A stretch of 64,000 nt of DNA, taken from the NCBI GenBank assembly GCA_019694475.1, contig JAIBBX010000003.1, positions 248,497 through 312,496 on the forward strand, written 5' to 3'. Under the pieces are notes generated by a model. The model did no database searches. It was not told where the DNA came from and saw only the letters and a list, made by a program, of their open reading frames with translations. This stretch comes from Parachlamydiales bacterium (lineage in GTDB: Bacteria > Chlamydiota > Chlamydiia > Chlamydiales > SM23-39). Position numbers and translations under genes: made by a program. Below, piece by piece: positions 19,970 through 55,793 of the stretch (positions are counted from its first letter, which is position 1; every line of letters starts with the position of its first letter).

Positions 19970-20004
19970 GACTGGTCTATGCTAAGAAAAAATTGAGGTT
20001 TGAT

Positions 20005-22713
20005 ATGAGATGGCTCCTTTATGCAATCGCTGTACCCTGTTTTTCTCTTCCGACGGGCGCCGTTTTTGTGCAGGGCCAAGGGGAACTTCGCTCTACGGAT
20101 CCGCTCCAGATGGAAGTCCAAGCAGCCGACCGTTCGATCATCCACTGGGAGGCGTTCGATGTTGCAGCTCCTGAGTCAGTTATCTTTTCTCTTCCCTCAG
20201 CAGATTGCGCGCTGCTCAATCGGGTGCTAGGAAATGCTAGGAGCGAAATTTTCGGTAAAATTTCCTCGAATGGGCAAATCATTCTCCTCAACCCGAATGG
20301 AATCTTCGTTGGTAAAGAAGCTTGCATCGACACCGCTGGCTGGATCGCAGCAACATTCGATCTTCAAGACAAAACATTTCTTCAGTCCAAGGAATGGCAA
20401 TTTGCAGGCTCTTCTCAGAAGCCAATAGAAATCGAAGGAACCATCCGTGCTCCAAAAATCTCACTTTTCGGGGACAATATCTCTCTTTCAGGATCGTTGA
20501 AAGGGGAATCGATCTTTGTCGGGGGAAGCCGTGAAGGAAAAGATGTTCTCATTCAGAATGCCTCTTTCGTGACGATTTCTCCAAGTGCAGAAATTGAGAC
20601 GATTCGGGATGGCCAGGCCATTTTCTTTTCGAAAGGCGATCTAGATTTCGGAGGACATGTCTATTCTCCAAATGGATTTGTTGAAGTTTCTGCGAAGCAA
20701 AATCTTGCATTCCATGGCCTTGTCGATACAGATAAAACAGGAACGCTCCTCCTCGATCCCAACCAGATCGATATCGTTTTAGGCGGCGCAGGGACCACTA
20801 TTCCGGCCCCGTTTGCTGCCTTTTATAATGGAAGCCCTGCTGTTAGCGCGACAGTGGCGAGCGCAGATCTGATCAACCAGCTGGGGCTCACGAATGTGAC
20901 CATCCAAACAAACAGCTCGATTCCTGGGGGCTCCGGAAATATCACTCTGCATCCAGGAGCTACGATTACTTGGGCTTCGGGAACCAATCTAACCCTGCAA
21001 GCCGATCAGTCAATTCTGATCTACGATTTGATCCACTCGACTGCACCCAACAGTCAAATTGCTCTGTTCGCAAACCAAGGGGATATTGTGATTACGAGCG
21101 ATTTCGGAGGATCGGGAGCTCAAGCACAAATCATCGTAGAAGAATTTCATCCCGTAGGTTTTCCATCCATTATTCTGCAAGCTCCAAACGGTTCGCTGAC
21201 AATGATCGCAGCAAACAATCTTGAAACCAAAGTCCGATCTAACGATCCCGCGAGTTCTGGAGATATACATATAGCAGCCCAATCGCTTAATTTCACAGCT
21301 GCTGCTGCACTTGCTGCAGATGCGAATGCGGGAATTCAAAACGGGAGAGGAGATATCTATGTAAATGTGACAGGGCCATTGAATTTTACTTCAGGCACAG
21401 GAAACGCCCCGAATCAGGCAAACGCGAATATTGTAACTGGTCTTTCAGGCATGGTCCCGACCGGCGGCAATCTTTACTTCTCTGTTGGTTCTTTGAACTT
21501 TAATTCATCTTCATCCATTACAGGCGTTCAAGGGGCTGCTTCTTTAACTGCATATGGAAGCAGCATGGGGGCAGGGTTTGGGAATGTTACGGGAACCGTT
21601 TTTGGAGATGCTTTATTTCAGAGCGGATATCCGATTGCAAACGGGAGCGGGATCTCCTCATTATTCAGCGGAAATATCGATGTGGCGATTCGAGGGAATC
21701 TAACCATGATTTCTAATTCAGGTCCATCGATCGCTTTTTGCGGTACGGGCATCCAGACTTTATTCACTCTGTCAGGAGCGACTGCTGATGTGAATGTTGC
21801 AATCGGGGGGAATTTAATCGCGATCTCGGGTGGAGGAATGGACTCGGGCGCGGGCTTTGGGGCAACCGGAAACTTATCAGTTGCTGTTGCCGGATCAGCG
21901 ATTTTCCAAGTCACGAACGGAACTGCCGGCGGTCAATCAGGAAATGTGATCTTTTCCCGTGCTGGTTCCGTAGATTTTGCAGCTCGCACGGTTTCATTTA
22001 TCGGCAACAACGGAACCCCTTTGCCAGTGGTTATTCAAGCTCAAAACAACATCACTTTTGCAACGATAGGGGATTTAACTCTCAACTTTGGGTCGTTAAT
22101 TGCCACTACTGGCAATATTACGCTTAGATCCGGCGGATCGATCCATCTGCAAACGGGCACATCTTTGCAGGCAAACCAGCAAATTTTGGCAATCGCTGAC
22201 CGCAATATCGAAATGCTGAATAGCTCTGCCAATTCAACAACGGACCGGATTATCTTCGTCGTGGACAATGCATTCCCTGTAAAACCACTCATAGGATCTG
22301 GCGCTTTCATTACCAACCCATCCACCTTAACGGCCCCGCTCGGCATCTCTATCTACACAGCGCAAAGGGCCAGAAACTCCATCCAAAGCACAACGTTTAA
22401 TGGCGCCACTTTTGTGCCAGGAACGCTCTTTGTCAATACAACTGAAGAGATTTGGTGCACTTACTATCCGAATGGGCTTACAACGTTTCCATTCACGATT
22501 TTCTACAAAGATTGCGAGAATCTTGTCGCCTACCAAGCGAATCTAATCGGATCGGAACTTTTCCGGGATCTGCATCCATACGATGAAGCTTGGGGCTGGT
22601 ACGAGCGGTTTACTCTCGCTGATGATGAGCGTACTGAACCTCATATGATCCGCCGCCGCAACCTCATGTTCGATCTGCCCAAGAGCTGGACAAAGATCGT
22701 CAATCATCCCTGA
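20005..22713 (+). CDS. TPS-domain (filamentous haemagglutinin N-terminal) beta-helical exoprotein, TpsA-like
   Basis: HWEAFDV...LLNRVLGNARSEIFGKISSNGQIILLNPNGIFVG is the haemagg_act/TPS signature with NPNGI. G/S/N/T-rich beta-helix repeats follow. ATG at 20005 with GAGG SD (the track TTG is at 19993). Confidence 0.85.
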   Translation: MRWLLYAIAVPCFSLPTGAVFVQGQGELRSTDPLQMEVQAADRSIIHWEAFDVAAPESVIFSLPSADCALLNRVLGNARSEIFGKISSNGQIILLNPNGIFVGKEACIDTAGWIAATFDLQDKTFLQSKEWQFAGSSQKPIEIEGTIRAPKISLFGDNISLSGSLKGESIFVGGSREGKDVLIQNASFVTISPSAEIETIRDGQAIFFSKGDLDFGGHVYSPNGFVEVSAKQNLAFHGLVDTDKTGTLLLDPNQIDIVLGGAGTTIPAPFAAFYNGSPAVSATVASADLINQLGLTNVTIQTNSSIPGGSGNITLHPGATITWASGTNLTLQADQSILIYDLIHSTAPNSQIALFANQGDIVITSDFGGSGAQAQIIVEEFHPVGFPSIILQAPNGSLTMIAANNLETKVRSNDPASSGDIHIAAQSLNFTAAAALAADANAGIQNGRGDIYVNVTGPLNFTSGTGNAPNQANANIVTGLSGMVPTGGNLYFSVGSLNFNSSSSITGVQGAASLTAYGSSMGAGFGNVTGTVFGDALFQSGYPIANGSGISSLFSGNIDVAIRGNLTMISNSGPSIAFCGTGIQTLFTLSGATADVNVAIGGNLIAISGGGMDSGAGFGATGNLSVAVAGSAIFQVTNGTAGGQSGNVIFSRAGSVDFAARTVSFIGNNGTPLPVVIQAQNNITFATIGDLTLNFGSLIATTGNITLRSGGSIHLQTGTSLQANQQILAIADRNIEMLNSSANSTTDRIIFVVDNAFPVKPLIGSGAFITNPSTLTAPLGISIYTAQRARNSIQSTTFNGATFVPGTLFVNTTEEIWCTYYPNGLTTFPFTIFYKDCENLVAYQANLIGSELFRDLHPYDEAWGWYERFTLADDERTEPHMIRRRNLMFDLPKSWTKIVNHP

Positions 22714-29624: not shown

Positions 29625-29865
29625 GACGTCGGGCATGCTACGCGCCATAAGAAACGCAAAACGCTAAACGCAGAATGCAAAACTATGGGCTGACGCATCG
29701 GCCCCGCTGGGTCAGCGGGGGCCCCCGCGCGTCAGTGCTGAGGGGGAAGCCCCCTCGCACCCCCATTTGTGCGCGAAGCATTGGGTGCATGCAAAGGAGG
29801 GCTTCCCTCCTTATGCCCGGAACGCGGGGGCGCAGCGCCGAATGGCGCGTAGCATGCCCGGCGTC
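29625..29865. repeat. GC-rich palindromic repeat element, copy E1 (MITE/REP-like)
   Basis: 22-bp terminal inverted repeats, gacgtcgggcatgctacgcgcc / ggcgcgtagcatgcccggcgtc (21/22). The core cagtgctgagggggaagccccctcgcacccc is shared with 53757 and 54984. GC content is far above the flanks. Confidence 0.8.
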
Positions 29866-53513: not shown

Positions 53514-53541
53514 ACAAATAGATAAAAGATAGAAGAATAAT

Positions 53542-54056
53542 GACAGTCGGGCATGCTACGCGCCCTTCGGCGCTGCGCCCCCGCTGCCCAGGCCAGGCTT
53601 CATCTCACTTTGAAAAAGCGTGTGCTCGACTCTGGGGTGTGCAAAGCACTACCCCGTCGCCCGAAACGGGCTTTCGCCTGCGCTACGTTTTTTCTTCGTG
53701 ATACGAAGCCAATGTCTGGCGCATCGGCCCCGCCGTTAGCGTGGGCCCCCGCGCGCCAGTGCTGAGGGGAGGCCCCTCGCACCCCAGCGCTGCCGCGCAT
53801 TCGCGAAGCTGGGTGGATGCAAAGGAGGGCCTCCCTCCTTGTGCCTGGAACACGGGGGGACCCCGCCAACGGCGGGGCCGTGGTCCAGCCCTTGGCTTCA
53901 GGTCACAAAGAAAAAGCGTAGCGCAGGCAAGAGCCCGCTTCGGGCGTTGGAGCTGTGCTTTGTACTGCCCCTTGCCGAGCACGCGCTTTTTCAAAGTGAA
54001 ATGAAGCCTGCTGGGCGCGGGGGCGCAGCGCGTACGCGCGTAGCACGCCCGACGTC
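53542..54056. repeat. GC-rich nested-palindromic repeat element, copy E2 (~515 bp)
   Basis: Same termini as E1 (gtcgggcatgctacgcgcc / gcgcgtagcacgcccgacgtc). Inner 33-bp arms 53596-53628 and 53976-54008 are 31/33 complementary. An E1-like core lies at 53757-53785. Confidence 0.8.
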
Positions 54057-54077
54057 ATATCTATTTTATTCCTACCT

Positions 54078-54857
54078 TTAAGGATTCGGATAATAGTTGA
54101 TGCCGTAGACCTGCTCGGTTCCGGCGATAAGATAGTAGGCGTGGGTTAGGTTGTTGATGGAGTTGTAGGTGATGTAAAGGAGCGAGCCGTTGGAAGTGAA
54201 GGATGTGACACCCGTGGTGCTGCAGAGAGAATTGGGCGTTAGGCTCACGCATTGGATGTAGGGAATAATACCGTTTGTTATGGGGGGAGTATTCGTCCCT
54301 GTCAATGAAGTTTGCATTGTGAAGTAGGACTGGGCTTTATATCTAAAATATGTTGCATTGCTCTTGATAATGGAAAATACATTCACGATGTCGGTCGCCC
54401 TTTGAGATAGATTGACTGTGTAGATGGGCAAAATACCCGTTGTCACTACTGTTAAATAGGCGCTCCCTGTCGCAAGCGTATTGTATGCTGAGAAAATCAC
54501 TTCCACTATTTGTTCAACTGGAACGACGTAAAACGTCAGGTTATTATTGCTTCCTCTGATCTGCTGCGAACCAACGATTAGAATGGTTGAGTTGGTTGTT
54601 GCCCAAACATTGCTGCTGACAACGTATCGGATGAGCTGCGGCTGGCCATTTACACCTAACGATCGCGTTTGGATGGCAATCTCTGAGTTGCCGTATTGCC
54701 CAGTTGTGAATGGTGCAGCAGAGAGAGAGGCGATCATATTGACAATGTCTTTGCCTCGGTTGGAAGGATCAATGTAGTAGATGGAGGTGCCGCTCGGAAT
54801 GTTGAGAGACTGTCCATACAAGTTTGCAAGAAATAGGAAAACCAACCAAAAGCGCAT
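54078..54857 (-). CDS. Secreted S/T/N-rich protein with an internal two-domain duplication (unknown family)
   Basis: Signal peptide MRFWLVFLFLANLYGQS (ATG at 54857; the track start is 54935). SIYYIDPSNRGKDIVNMIASL is repeated as PIYTVNLSQRATDIVNVFSII. Confidence 0.6.
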   Translation of the reverse strand: MRFWLVFLFLANLYGQSLNIPSGTSIYYIDPSNRGKDIVNMIASLSAAPFTTGQYGNSEIAIQTRSLGVNGQPQLIRYVVSSNVWATTNSTILIVGSQQIRGSNNNLTFYVVPVEQIVEVIFSAYNTLATGSAYLTVVTTGILPIYTVNLSQRATDIVNVFSIIKSNATYFRYKAQSYFTMQTSLTGTNTPPITNGIIPYIQCVSLTPNSLCSTTGVTSFTSNGSLLYITYNSINNLTHAYYLIAGTEQVYGINYYPNP

Positions 54858-54936
54858 AAAACACCCAAAAAGGAAACACTCTAGCAAAATTTTGAATTGG
54901 GGACAAGATTTGAATAGGTGTATTGACATCAACAAT

Positions 54937-55253
54937 AAGGGCTCACACGTCAGTCCCGCTGGTCAGCGAGTCCCACTGCGTGTCAGTGCTAAGGGGAGGC
55001 CCCTCGCACCCCAAAACGCTTCGCGTTCACAAGCTTTCTTGTGTTCCGACAACTTTCATTTTTCTTCGAAAAAAGAGAAGTCGTTGTGAGGGCCCCACGC
55101 CTAACGGCGAGTAAAGGGGGGAGTCCGAGAGGGGGCAAGCCAGCCCCCCTTCGCTAGTGGGGTGGATAGGAAGGTGGGCTTCCCTTCCTTATGTTCTGGC
55201 ACACGAGGGTGCAAGCCCTTAGTTTTGCATTTTGCATTCTGCATTTTGCGTTT
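54937..55253. repeat. GC-rich palindromic repeat element, copy E3, with a heptanucleotide array
   Basis: Ends aagggctcacacg / cgagggtgcaagccctt. Core at 54984-55012. A (TTTTGCA)-like x4 array at 55223-55253 is the reverse complement of the E1 array at 29652-29686. Confidence 0.75.
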
Positions 55254-55256
55254 ATA

Positions 55257-55772
55257 TTAGTATCTGGGTTGGTGGTTAACCCAACGTCTGATCCAGGCGT
55301 CGATCGAAACGCGGCCCGGTCCAAAAATAAAGACGAGCAAAGTCGTAATCAGGAACGGGTAGGGGTTTTCGCCAGCGAGCGATTTTGGATCGAGAATAAA
55401 CGAGAAATTTGCAAGATTTTCGGCGTGCGCAGTAGTGAGGGCGGTGATCAGAATGATTGTGAGAGGGATGGAGATGAGTCTGGATGCAAAGCCAATGAAA
55501 AGCAAGATGCCTCCGATCGCTTCTAAATGAGCGACCAAATAGGCATGGATTTCAGGGTGGGGTAACCCTAACTTTGTAAAAAAAGCGATGGTGTCAGGAA
55601 AATTTTTAATCTTTTCAACGCCGCTTAATACAAACTGGTGGCCCCAGGTCATGCGCATGTAAAGGAGGAACAGGCTCTGTAGGTTAGAACCAATTTTAAT
55701 CAATAAGCCGTAAGCCTTATCCATCCAATACAGGAACCGGTTCTCAAGCATATCTATCCCCTTTTTCCGCAT
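55257..55772 (-). CDS. DoxX-family membrane protein
   Basis: 4 TM segments and HAYLVAHLEAIGGILLFIGFASRL, typical of DoxX. Confidence 0.7.
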   Translation of the reverse strand: MRKKGIDMLENRFLYWMDKAYGLLIKIGSNLQSLFLLYMRMTWGHQFVLSGVEKIKNFPDTIAFFTKLGLPHPEIHAYLVAHLEAIGGILLFIGFASRLISIPLTIILITALTTAHAENLANFSFILDPKSLAGENPYPFLITTLLVFIFGPGRVSIDAWIRRWVNHQPRY

Positions 55773-55793
55773 TATGCTATACTTTTCGGTACC

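What the first reader, a model, noticed from the sequence alone, without database searches (positions are those of the whole stretch)
53542..54056. Copy E2: a ~515-bp nested long-hairpin version of the GC-rich element
- E2 has the same termini as E1. Between them an additional pair of long complementary arms encloses an E1-like core (about 53720-53880).
- For example, ggcttcatctcactttgaaaaagcgtgtgctcg at 53596-53628 pairs with 53976-54008 at 31/33, with further pairing inward.
- The layout suggests either element-into-element insertion or a modular family with optional arms.
- Folded as RNA or as single-stranded DNA it would be a ~250-bp imperfect hairpin.
- Five overlapping track ORFs (53553-54081) are almost certainly GC artefacts.
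Basis: seen in the sequence. Interest (0 to 1): 0.55.

Follow-up and report, generated by a model that had tools for sequence, protein, structure and literature searches.

The report
GC-rich foldback repeat of environmental chlamydiae
The 515-bp stretch is a real but worn copy of a rare, apparently undescribed family of non-coding, GC-rich, hairpin-forming repeats scattered between genes of amoeba-type chlamydiae; it is most likely a passive mobile element and not a gene.

Summary
Window 53542-54056 is a 515-bp, 66% GC, end-to-end imperfect palindrome (DNA fold z = -20) in a 45.8% GC Parachlamydiales MAG. Its 21-nt inverted termini match those of E1 (29625-29865).

The nested-insertion reading is not supported. 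The "extra arms" are not an insertion peculiar to this site. The same architecture recurs at 75-88% identity in at least four other assemblies (L086, L087, L088, L093), and a fifth (L089) is cut by a contig end. That architecture is terminus, mini-hairpin, 120-nt Y-shaped sub-palindrome "H", hairpin hC, tip hairpin, variable centre, then the mirror image.

- E2 is a decayed full-length member: its arms pair at 81%, against 92-94% elsewhere.
- E1 is the short form, without H.
- A third copy, E3 (54937-55253), is a remnant without termini.
- The internal ORFs are GC artefacts. One is annotated in GenBank as K1X28_06860.

Compensatory changes support the local hairpins within each arm. No transposase, clear target duplication or Rfam family was found.

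Best reading: a non-autonomous MITE/foldback-like repeat sitting in AT-rich spacers, often between convergent genes. A terminator-like role for H is only inferred. This is a new member of a known kind, of moderate interest.

The parts
53542..54056 (.). E2: full-length, decayed copy of the foldback repeat (515 bp, 66% GC)
   Evidence: Self reverse-complement alignment at 76%. Folds with z = -20 as DNA and -22.7 as RNA. Both arms hit the half-unit profile at E = 1e-71 and 1e-77.
53514..53541 (+). Left outer A/G-rich, AT-rich tract. It starts right after the stop codon of the glycosyltransferase-like gene. Probably the outermost part of the element.
   Evidence: 16 of 18 element ends in all loci carry such a tract. 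ATAGAAGAATA is shared with the left flank of L094.
54057..54077 (+). Right outer T/C-rich tract, the mirror of the left tract. It ends at the stop codon of orf285 (54078-54935, minus strand).
53542..53563 (+). Left terminal inverted repeat, GACAGTCGGGCATGCTACGCGC
   Evidence: Conserved as GACGTCGGGCATGYTACGCG in all family members.
54036..54056 (-). Right terminal inverted repeat, GACGTCGGGCGTGCTACGCGC on the minus strand
53560..53573 (+). h1: mini-hairpin GCGCC-CTTC-GGCGC next to the terminus. Its length varies between copies.
   Evidence: Alignment of outer parts. In L094 a ~100-nt insertion lies just inward of h1.
53594..53714 (+). H, left arm: 120-nt sub-palindrome that folds locally into a Y shape (A5/T5 stem plus two small hairpins)
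   Evidence: Local fold z = -7.1. Covariance-model hit of 124.8 bits. Covariation.
53890..54010 (-). H, right arm (same module, inverted)
   Evidence: Covariance-model hit of 118.6 bits. Fold z = -5.4.
53716..53759 (+). hC, left arm: stem CTGGCGC...GCGCCAG enclosing hairpin GGCCCCGC...GCGTGGGCC
   Evidence: five different Watson-Crick versions of the outer stem across copies.
53845..53888 (-). hC, right arm (degenerate)
53764..53778 (+). Tip hairpin alpha, GAGGGG-AGG-CCCCTC
   Evidence: The same alpha type is on one arm of E1 and of L088.
53822..53840 (+). Tip hairpin beta, AAGGAGGG-CCT-CCCTCCTT
   Evidence: The same beta type is on the other arm of E1 and of L088.
53779..53821 (.). Centre of the palindrome (axis near 53800). 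In other copies this is the site of variable inserts of about 55-230 bp.
   Evidence: Centres of L086, L088 and L093. E3 has a 140-bp insert at the same place.
29625..29865 (.). E1: short form (241 bp). Same termini and alpha/beta core, no H. One arm carries an AT-rich heptamer-repeat 'A' module (29649-29691).
54937..55253 (.). E3: decayed copy without termini. Core split by a ~140-bp insert (55013-55150), followed by an inverted 'A' module (55214-55253).

Best explanation
E2 is an old, partly decayed, full-length copy of a family of non-coding, GC-rich, foldback-type repeats bounded by terminal inverted repeats (MITE-like). So far the family is seen only in environmental chlamydiae, that is, Parachlamydiales-type MAGs and metagenome contigs.

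**Shown**
- The unit has two inverted arms of about 260 nt around a variable centre.
- Each arm has a fixed order of modules:
  1. an outer A/G-rich tract;
  2. a 21-nt terminus, GACGTCGGGCATGYTACGCG;
  3. mini-hairpin h1;
  4. the 120-nt Y-shaped sub-palindrome H;
  5. hairpin hC;
  6. a tip hairpin (alpha or beta type).
- Copies sit at non-orthologous intergenic sites in different genomes.
- Shorter (E1, L082), one-armed (L083, L090, probably L094) and remnant (E3) derivatives exist.
- No copy seen carries a gene.

**Inferred**
- The unit is, or was, moved in trans by an enzyme that recognises the conserved termini.
- It lands in AT-rich spacers, often between convergent genes, where it does little harm.
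- Long palindromes are unstable, so arms are lost or decay with time. E2, with 81% arm pairing, is such a fossil.

**More weakly inferred**
- The local hairpins within each arm are kept by selection. They would form in nascent RNA or in single-stranded DNA.
- In nearly all arms H has the layout A5, GC-rich stem-loops, then T5CTTT. This is the layout of a bidirectional intrinsic terminator.
- A resident copy may therefore terminate or insulate transcription entering from either flank.
For: **Family and architecture**
- Half-unit profile hits come in inverted pairs in L086, L088, L093, L087 and the window.
- The alignment of 12 arms shows 75-96% identity and one module order.
- Termini are conserved.

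**Host**
- The aaRS next to E2 is 80% identical to that of a Parachlamydiales MAG.
- The spurious ORF inside E2 equals MBX7066933.1, from 'Parachlamydiales bacterium'.
- A second copy in the same MAG gives MBX7066307.1.
- L090 carries an sctJ..L-R-S-T cluster that I recognise from memory as the chlamydial arrangement.

**Different insertion sites**
-. The spacer is between convergent genes for E2, L088, L093 and L090.

**Absence from relatives' syntenic locus**
- L002 and L008 have aaRS-GT2-RlmN. L003 has aaRS-DoxX-RlmN. The window has aaRS-GT2-E2-orf285-E3-DoxX-RlmN.

**Non-coding**
-.

**Local hairpins**
- H has 41 pairs, with 96.9% of cells paired. Six pairs show compensatory changes, against 0-1 in slid controls.
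- The hC stem exists in five Watson-Crick versions.
- In L086 the two arms differ at two pairs of columns, and each difference is compensated within its own arm.

**Decay of E2**
- Arm pairing is 81% in E2, against 92-94% in L086, L088 and L093.
Against: - No transposase, integrase or RAYT-like gene was found among window ORFs of at least 200 aa. Smaller ORFs were not screened. None of the precomputed Pfam annotations of genes beside the other copies is a transposase or integrase family.
- No autonomous element with these termini was found.
- A target-site duplication is not demonstrable. A 2-bp AT/TA match occurs in only 3 of 7 copies, and it cannot be told apart from an extension of the inverted repeat.
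- No filled-versus-empty orthologous site was recovered, so mobility is inferred from distribution only.
- Copy number per genome is unknown. The family is rare in public data: 6 real hits in 1.84 billion protein representatives, and 2 hits in JGI metagenomes for the terminus pattern.
- On the terminator idea, the L090 copy has the A and T runs swapped. The stem is much longer and more branched than in classical terminators.
Confidence: 0.6

Rival explanations
1. REPIN-like element moved as single-stranded DNA by an HUH/Y1 (RAYT- or IS200/IS605-type) transposase. The enzyme would recognise the local hairpins, so the arm is the basic unit and the palindrome is a head-to-head dimer.
For: - Local intra-arm hairpins are conserved, with compensatory changes.
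- Single arms exist next to dimers (L083, L090, L094).
- No clear target duplication.
- The termini contain CGTC, the tag of one REP superfamily (PMC3733652).
Against: - The arms are about 260 nt, against 20-40 nt for REPs.
- The hairpin next to the CGTC does not fit the published CGTC-REP layout (8-9 bp stem starting with AT, CCA tail).
- The flanks are symmetric on both sides. Insertion of IS200/IS605 type is asymmetric (from memory).
- No Y1 transposase gene was seen in the window or the loci.
Confidence: 0.15
2. A structured non-coding RNA, or a host-recruited regulatory hairpin cassette (terminator, insulator or mRNA 3' stabiliser). It would be maintained by selection for its fold, with its spread being secondary.
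For: - 75-88% nucleotide identity across genomes of 44-54% GC.
- Covariation in the local helices.
- The A5/T5 arrangement of H is invariant in 10 of the 11 aligned arms; L087_R has GAGAAA and a TTTTTG run.
- Frequent position between convergent genes.
Against: - No Rfam family fits. The only hits are a generic long-hairpin microRNA model at 49 bits against a threshold of 200, and an antisense-RNA model (RF02876) at 20.5 bits against 40.
- The two strands fold about equally well, and G-T versus A-C mismatches between the arms show no consistent strand bias.
- Compensatory-looking changes in hairpins can arise by replication template switching without selection (PMC8794818).
- E1 and L083 lie between divergent genes.
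- L090 has the A/T runs swapped.
Confidence: 0.15
3. Nested insertion: an E1-like element that received a second palindromic element on both sides of its core.
For: - E1 lacks the arms.
- Each arm is itself a palindrome bounded by GGCTTC...GAAGCC.
Against: - H is at the same position and in the same orientation in every arm of every full-length copy from five other sources.
- It never occurs alone.
- Two independent symmetric insertions would have to recur in each genome.
Confidence: 0.04
4. Protein-coding gene(s), as annotated (K1X28_06860), or an assembly artefact.
For: PGAP calls a 47-aa ORF inside the right arm.
Against: - No codon-position bias, frame-breaking indels, open frames on both strands, and no Pfam hit.
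- Junctions are reproduced in independent read sets.
Confidence: 0.02

Closest known systems
Bacterial MITEs with palindromic bodies (Correia/CREE elements of Neisseria, and similar)
   Same: Non-coding, bounded by terminal inverted repeats of ~20-26 nt, intergenic, multi-copy, AT/TA at the junctions. Able to fold as one hairpin. Come in long and short forms.
   Different: - 3-5 times longer.
- GC-rich in a lower-GC host.
- Hierarchical: each arm holds four locally folding hairpins.
- No partner transposase and no demonstrable target duplication.
- No sequence similarity to any record searched.
REP / REPIN / BIME elements and their RAYT transposases (PMC3733652)
   Same: GC-rich hairpins in spacers, mostly as head-to-head dimers that fold into larger structures. 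Single units also occur. Often between convergent genes. CGTC at the end.
   Different: - The unit is ~260 nt, not 20-40 nt.
- It does not match the published GTAG or CGTC layouts.
- Low apparent copy number.
- No RAYT gene seen.
ERIC/IRU sequences of enterobacteria
   Same: Imperfect palindromes in transcribed spacers. Size classes are generated by blocks inserted or deleted at fixed internal sites (from memory).
   Different: Different taxon and sequence. ERIC is ~127 bp and lacks long conserved termini of this kind.
Rickettsia palindromic elements (RPE)
   Same: Palindromic repeats that have spread in an obligate intracellular bacterium. One copy here (L090) abuts and supplies the end of an ORF.
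   Different: RPEs are 100-150 bp and typically lie in frame inside genes. Here all copies are intergenic and full of stop codons at the outer tracts.
Foldback transposons of eukaryotes; T-shaped inverted terminal repeats of parvoviruses (analogy of shape only)
   Same: Almost the whole element consists of two long inverted arms around a variable middle. Small internal palindromes branch off the main stem.
   Different: No evidence of shared ancestry or mechanism. This is a resemblance of geometry, recalled from memory.

Membership tests
MITE (miniature inverted-repeat transposable element) | Short (under about 1 kb) and without coding capacity | tested here: met
   Copies are 180-759 bp. The ORFs show no coding signal.
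MITE (miniature inverted-repeat transposable element) | Terminal inverted repeats | tested here: met
   A 21-22 nt terminus on both ends of E1, E2, L082, L086, L088 and L093. In L087 only the right end is canonical; the left end is diverged.
MITE (miniature inverted-repeat transposable element) | Several copies at unrelated sites in a genome | tested here: met
   Three copies in this 64-kb window and a further copy on another contig of the same MAG. Two copies in GCA_964485615.1.
MITE (miniature inverted-repeat transposable element) | Target-site duplication of fixed length | tested here: inconclusive
   AT/AT or TA/TA in 3 of 7 copies. These dinucleotides are self-complementary, and the flanks are low-complexity A/G tracts.
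MITE (miniature inverted-repeat transposable element) | A related autonomous element (transposase between the same termini) | not testable with these tools
   None in the window or the loci.
MITE (miniature inverted-repeat transposable element) | Presence/absence polymorphism at orthologous sites | tested here: inconclusive
   Relatives lack E2 and E3 at the aaRS-RlmN locus, but the whole spacer differs, so there is no clean empty site.
REP / REPIN | 20-40 nt hairpin unit with an unpaired GTAG or CGTC tag and the published stem/loop layout | tested here: not met
   The unit is ~260 nt. The CGTC at the terminus is not followed by the 8-9 bp AT-started stem.
REP / REPIN | Associated RAYT (Y1 transposase) gene flanked by the repeats | tested here: inconclusive
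   None among the ORFs scanned in the window (at least 200 aa) or in the loci.
Known RNA families (Rfam 15) | Match at or above a family's gathering score | tested here: not met
   Only tRNA-Gln in the window. In the region, only MIR839 at 49 bits against a threshold of 200, and RF02876 at 20.5 bits against 40.
Intrinsic (factor-independent) terminator | GC-rich hairpin directly followed by a T run on the transcribed strand | tested here: inconclusive
   H has GAAAAAG...stem...CTTTTTCTTTG in 10 of the 11 aligned arms. The stem is 100 nt and branched. The simple scan does not call it. L090 has the runs swapped.
Protein-coding gene | Conserved reading frame with excess third-position change | tested here: not met
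   18/15/17 variable columns at codon positions 1/2/3, with 1-2 nt indels.

The most novel reading that the evidence does not exclude
The family is not just junk DNA. It would be a self-spreading cassette of structured hairpins whose local folds are under selection. Either each arm works as a portable two-way transcription terminator or insulator for convergent genes in chlamydiae, or the hairpins are the single-strand substrate of an as yet unknown hairpin-recognising (HUH-type) transposase. In the second case it would be a 'giant REPIN' class, ten times larger than any described.
Probability: 0.2. Interest if true: 0.6.

Novelty: new member of a known kind. Interest (0 to 1): 0.38.

Why it matters
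- **Annotation and assembly.** The element produces spurious 'hypothetical proteins', for example K1X28_06860. The short Logan contigs examined end inside E1 and E2.
- **Genome dynamics.** Classical chlamydiae almost lack repeats (PMC2878342). A conserved, hierarchically folded repeat shared by several environmental chlamydial lineages points to a route of DNA exchange or spread among these intracellular bacteria. It also marks variable spacers where lineage-specific genes (here orf285) sit.
- **Possible tool.** If the local hairpins turn out to be functional (terminator or transposase substrate), the family would be a compact natural model. It could also serve as a genetic tool for a phylum that is hard to manipulate.

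Tried and rejected
1. An exact-pattern scan with the alpha-hairpin core found nothing in GTDB genomes or JGI metagenomes. The pattern was too specific to the window's copies.
2. A protein search with the 103-aa ORF 53683-53994(-) found nothing. Profiles of two other frames did work.
3. Look-ups of P0004 and P0005 to fetch the source MAG's other copy failed, because those genes are not on record.
4. Rfam at a permissive threshold gave only MIR839 long-hairpin matches (49 and 44 bits against 200) and RF02876 at 20.5 bits against 40. These were rejected as shape matches.
5. Plasmid and phage BLAST, and three scans of viral contigs, gave nothing. There is therefore no sign of a viral or plasmid source.
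6. I tested for strand-specific G-U wobble as a sign of an RNA gene. There was no consistent bias between arms. Inside H my tally shows a weak excess (16 G-U against 6 A-C cells), but it is not independent of phylogeny, so I did not rely on it.
7. A covariance model of H was used to look for free-standing H modules. None was found.
8. Target duplication: 2-bp and 3-bp schemes, and a palindromic-target scheme, were examined by eye. None is consistent.
9. The CGTC-REP idea from PMC3733652 was rejected because the layout does not fit.
10. The literature held no description of such repeats in chlamydiae.

Full report
**1. Host and setting**

The window is coding-dense bacterial DNA of 45.8% GC. 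It carries housekeeping genes such as UvrD, RnpA, L36/S14, MutS, UvrC, DnaG, GlgA and RlmN.

- The class-II aminoacyl-tRNA synthetase next to the finding is 80% and 78% identical to those of a Parachlamydiales MAG (L002) and an unclassified 'uncultured bacterium' MAG (L003).
- A 47-aa ORF inside the finding is identical to GenBank MBX7066933.1, 'hypothetical protein K1X28_06860 [Parachlamydiales bacterium]'.
- The source is therefore an environmental chlamydial MAG.
- Short Logan contigs from three sequencing runs match the window at 100% and end inside E1 or E2.

**2.

- E2 (53542-54056) is 66% GC.
- It aligns to its own reverse complement over its whole length at 76%.
- It folds far better than shuffled controls: z = -20 as DNA and -22.7 as RNA.
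- Its 21-nt termini occur only at the ends of E1 and E2, with 0.00 expected by chance.
- The core matches E1 at 87-90%.
- I also found a third copy that the finding does not mention. E3 (about 54937-55253) has no termini, has a ~140-bp insert in its centre, and carries an inverted copy of E1's AT-rich 'A' module.

**3. Finding relatives**

- Exact-pattern scans with the core failed.
- A pattern of terminus plus adjacent segment found two JGI contigs, L082 and L083.
- The element is GC-rich, so gene callers often predict ORFs in it. Profiles of two of its translated frames therefore retrieved further copies. Their DNA was fetched.
- A half-unit nhmmer profile then mapped all copies.
- Full-length palindromic copies are L086 (570 bp), L087 (562 bp), L088 (586 bp) and L093 (759 bp). 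L089 is cut by a contig end.
- One-armed copies are L083, L090-92 and probably L094. L082 is a ~180-bp short form.
- An exhaustive profile search of 1.84 billion protein representatives gave only eight hits, six of them real. The family is therefore rare in public data.
- Nothing was found in plasmids, phages or viral contigs.
- The accessible literature does not describe such repeats in chlamydiae.

**4. Anatomy**

All arms share one module order:

| Order | Module | Description |
|---|---|---|
| 1 | outer tract | A/G-rich, AT-rich |
| 2 | terminus | GACGTCGGGCATGYTACGCG |
| 3 | h1 | a GC mini-hairpin of variable length |
| 4 | linker | GCGCCCCCGCGCCCAGCAG |
| 5 | H | ~120 nt |
| 6 | hC | CTGGCAC..GGCCCCGC-loop-GCGGGGCC..GTGCCAG |
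| 7 | tip hairpin | alpha or beta type |
| 8 | centre | variable |

- The centre is almost nil in E2, about 55-60 bp in L086 and L088, and 230 bp in L093. The L093 centre includes three 39-bp tandem repeats.
- H always has the same orientation relative to the terminus and never occurs alone.
- The long form is therefore the canonical unit. E1 is a derivative that lost H. The nested-insertion idea is rejected.
- E1, E2 and L088 share an asymmetric tip: alpha (GAGGGG-AGG-CCCCTC) on one arm and beta (AAGGAGGG-AGG-CCCTCCTT) on the other.
- E2's left arm is closer to one arm of L088 (0.83), and its right arm to the other (0.84), than the two E2 arms are to each other (0.76). The two arms were therefore already different in a common ancestor of these copies.
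- Elsewhere the arms cluster by genome, at 0.89-0.96.
- E2's arms pair at 81%, against 92-94% in L086, L088 and L093. Several H pairs are broken in E2. E2 is an old, decaying copy.

**5. Local folds**

- H folds on its own into a Y shape in every copy, with z from -4 to -9.
- On 11 arms, 41 pairs are 96.9% paired. Six pairs carry compensatory double changes, against 0-1 when the partners are slid by one to three columns.
- The outer stem of hC exists as GGCAC/GTGCC, GGCGC/GCGCC, GACAC/GTGTC, GGCAT/ATGCC and GACGC/GCGTC.
- In L086 the two arms differ at two pairs of columns (A-T against G-C). Each difference is compensated within its own arm and therefore mismatched across arms. This favours the local hairpins, not only the long rod, as the maintained structure.
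- Two caveats apply. The sequences are related, and replication template switching in quasi-palindromes can produce such paired changes without selection (PMC8794818).
- Neither strand is favoured by wobble pairs across arms. I therefore cannot say whether the fold matters in RNA or in single-stranded DNA.

**6. Not coding**

- All six frames are largely open because of the GC content.
- Variable columns are spread 18/15/17 over codon positions.
- Indels are mostly 1-2 nt.
- There is no Pfam hit.

**7. Context and ends**

- Copies lie in different spacers in different genomes. The spacer is between convergent genes for E2, L088, L093 and L090, between divergent genes for E1 and L083, and between tandem genes for E3 and L086.
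- 16 of 18 ends are preceded by 15-30 nt of A/G-rich, AT-rich sequence. ATAGAAGAATA is shared by E2 and L094, and AATAGAGAAGA by L082 and L086. These tracts are therefore probably part of the unit.
- In E2 the tracts reach exactly from the stop codon of the upstream gene to the stop codon of orf285.
- A 2-bp AT/TA duplication fits only 3 of 7 copies and is ambiguous.
- At the aaRS-RlmN locus, relatives have aaRS-GT2-RlmN or aaRS-DoxX-RlmN. The window has aaRS-GT2-E2-orf285-E3-DoxX-RlmN. E2 and E3 thus bracket a lineage-specific gene, but no clean empty site is available.
- No transposase-like gene is present among the window's larger ORFs or next to other copies.

**8. Interpretation**

The best-supported reading, at about 0.6, is a non-autonomous, foldback or MITE-like repeat family of environmental chlamydiae. 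E2 is a fossil full-length copy.

- How it moves is inferred, not shown.
- H has the A5, stem, T5CTTT layout of a two-way terminator in 10 of the 11 aligned arms. That suggests resident copies could end transcription from both sides. The L090 copy with swapped runs and the unusual size of the stem argue for caution.
- Rivals are a REPIN-like single-strand mechanism and a selected structured RNA or regulatory cassette, each at about 0.15.
- It is a new member of a known kind. It is useful for annotation and for understanding genome dynamics in chlamydiae, but not categorically new.

Noticed in passing
window 53918-54058 (minus strand): GenBank annotates a 47-aa 'hypothetical protein' (K1X28_06860, MBX7066933.1) wholly inside the right arm of E2. 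A second such ORF (K1X28_03660) marks another copy on a 572-kb contig of the same MAG. Both are spurious calls caused by the GC-rich repeat.
   Followed up: yes
window 53514-55793: Between the GT2-like gene and RlmN the window holds E2, orf285 (a predicted hydrophobic N-terminus, no Pfam family), E3 and a DoxX gene. Relatives have GT2-RlmN or DoxX-RlmN directly adjacent. The two repeats bracket the lineage-specific orf285.
   Followed up: partly
window 29649-29691 and 55214-55253: The 'A' module is an AT-rich run of four or five heptamers (AAAAYGC). It replaces the H arm in E1 and occurs inverted beside E3. Its origin and role are unknown.
   Followed up: no
window 55013-55150: The ~140-bp insert in the centre of E3 is itself made of several small hairpins (for example CACAAG-CTTT-CTTGTG, and GGGGGG...CCCCCC). 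It has no match elsewhere in the window.
   Followed up: no
L093 7856-8086: The centre of this 759-bp copy holds three tandem 39-bp units, each with the hairpin CCGACGATGCGTCGG. It looks like a second kind of small palindromic repeat lodged in the loop.
   Followed up: no
L090 9659-9993 (also L091, L092): A 110-aa ORF ends with a Lys/Arg-rich tail (EKKRRKIRKK) encoded by the element's outer purine tract. Its stop codon TAG straddles the element boundary. The repeat may have replaced the gene's original 3' end.
   Followed up: no
L094 163-261: A ~100-nt block of further hairpins is inserted just inward of h1, within the GC-rich linker (between GCGCTGCCCC and AGCCCCGCGGCCCAG). This is a second site, besides the centre, where the family accepts extra modules.
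   Followed up: no
L001, L084, L085 (Logan contigs): Short-read contigs of the same organism from three runs all stop inside E1 or E2. Palindromic repeats of this kind break de Bruijn assemblies and will be under-represented in MAGs.
   Followed up: partly
window 830-2014 and 19993-22713: A protein with a eukaryote-type ubiquitin C-terminal hydrolase domain (UCH, E = 5e-8), and a 906-aa protein with a two-partner-secretion (TPS) domain. Both are candidates for host-interaction factors.
   Followed up: no
window 53688-53917: Rfam's plant microRNA model MIR839 matches both strands at E = 1e-7 to 1e-8, but at 44-49 bits against a threshold of 200. This shows how long-hairpin models pick up any long palindrome.
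   Followed up: yes
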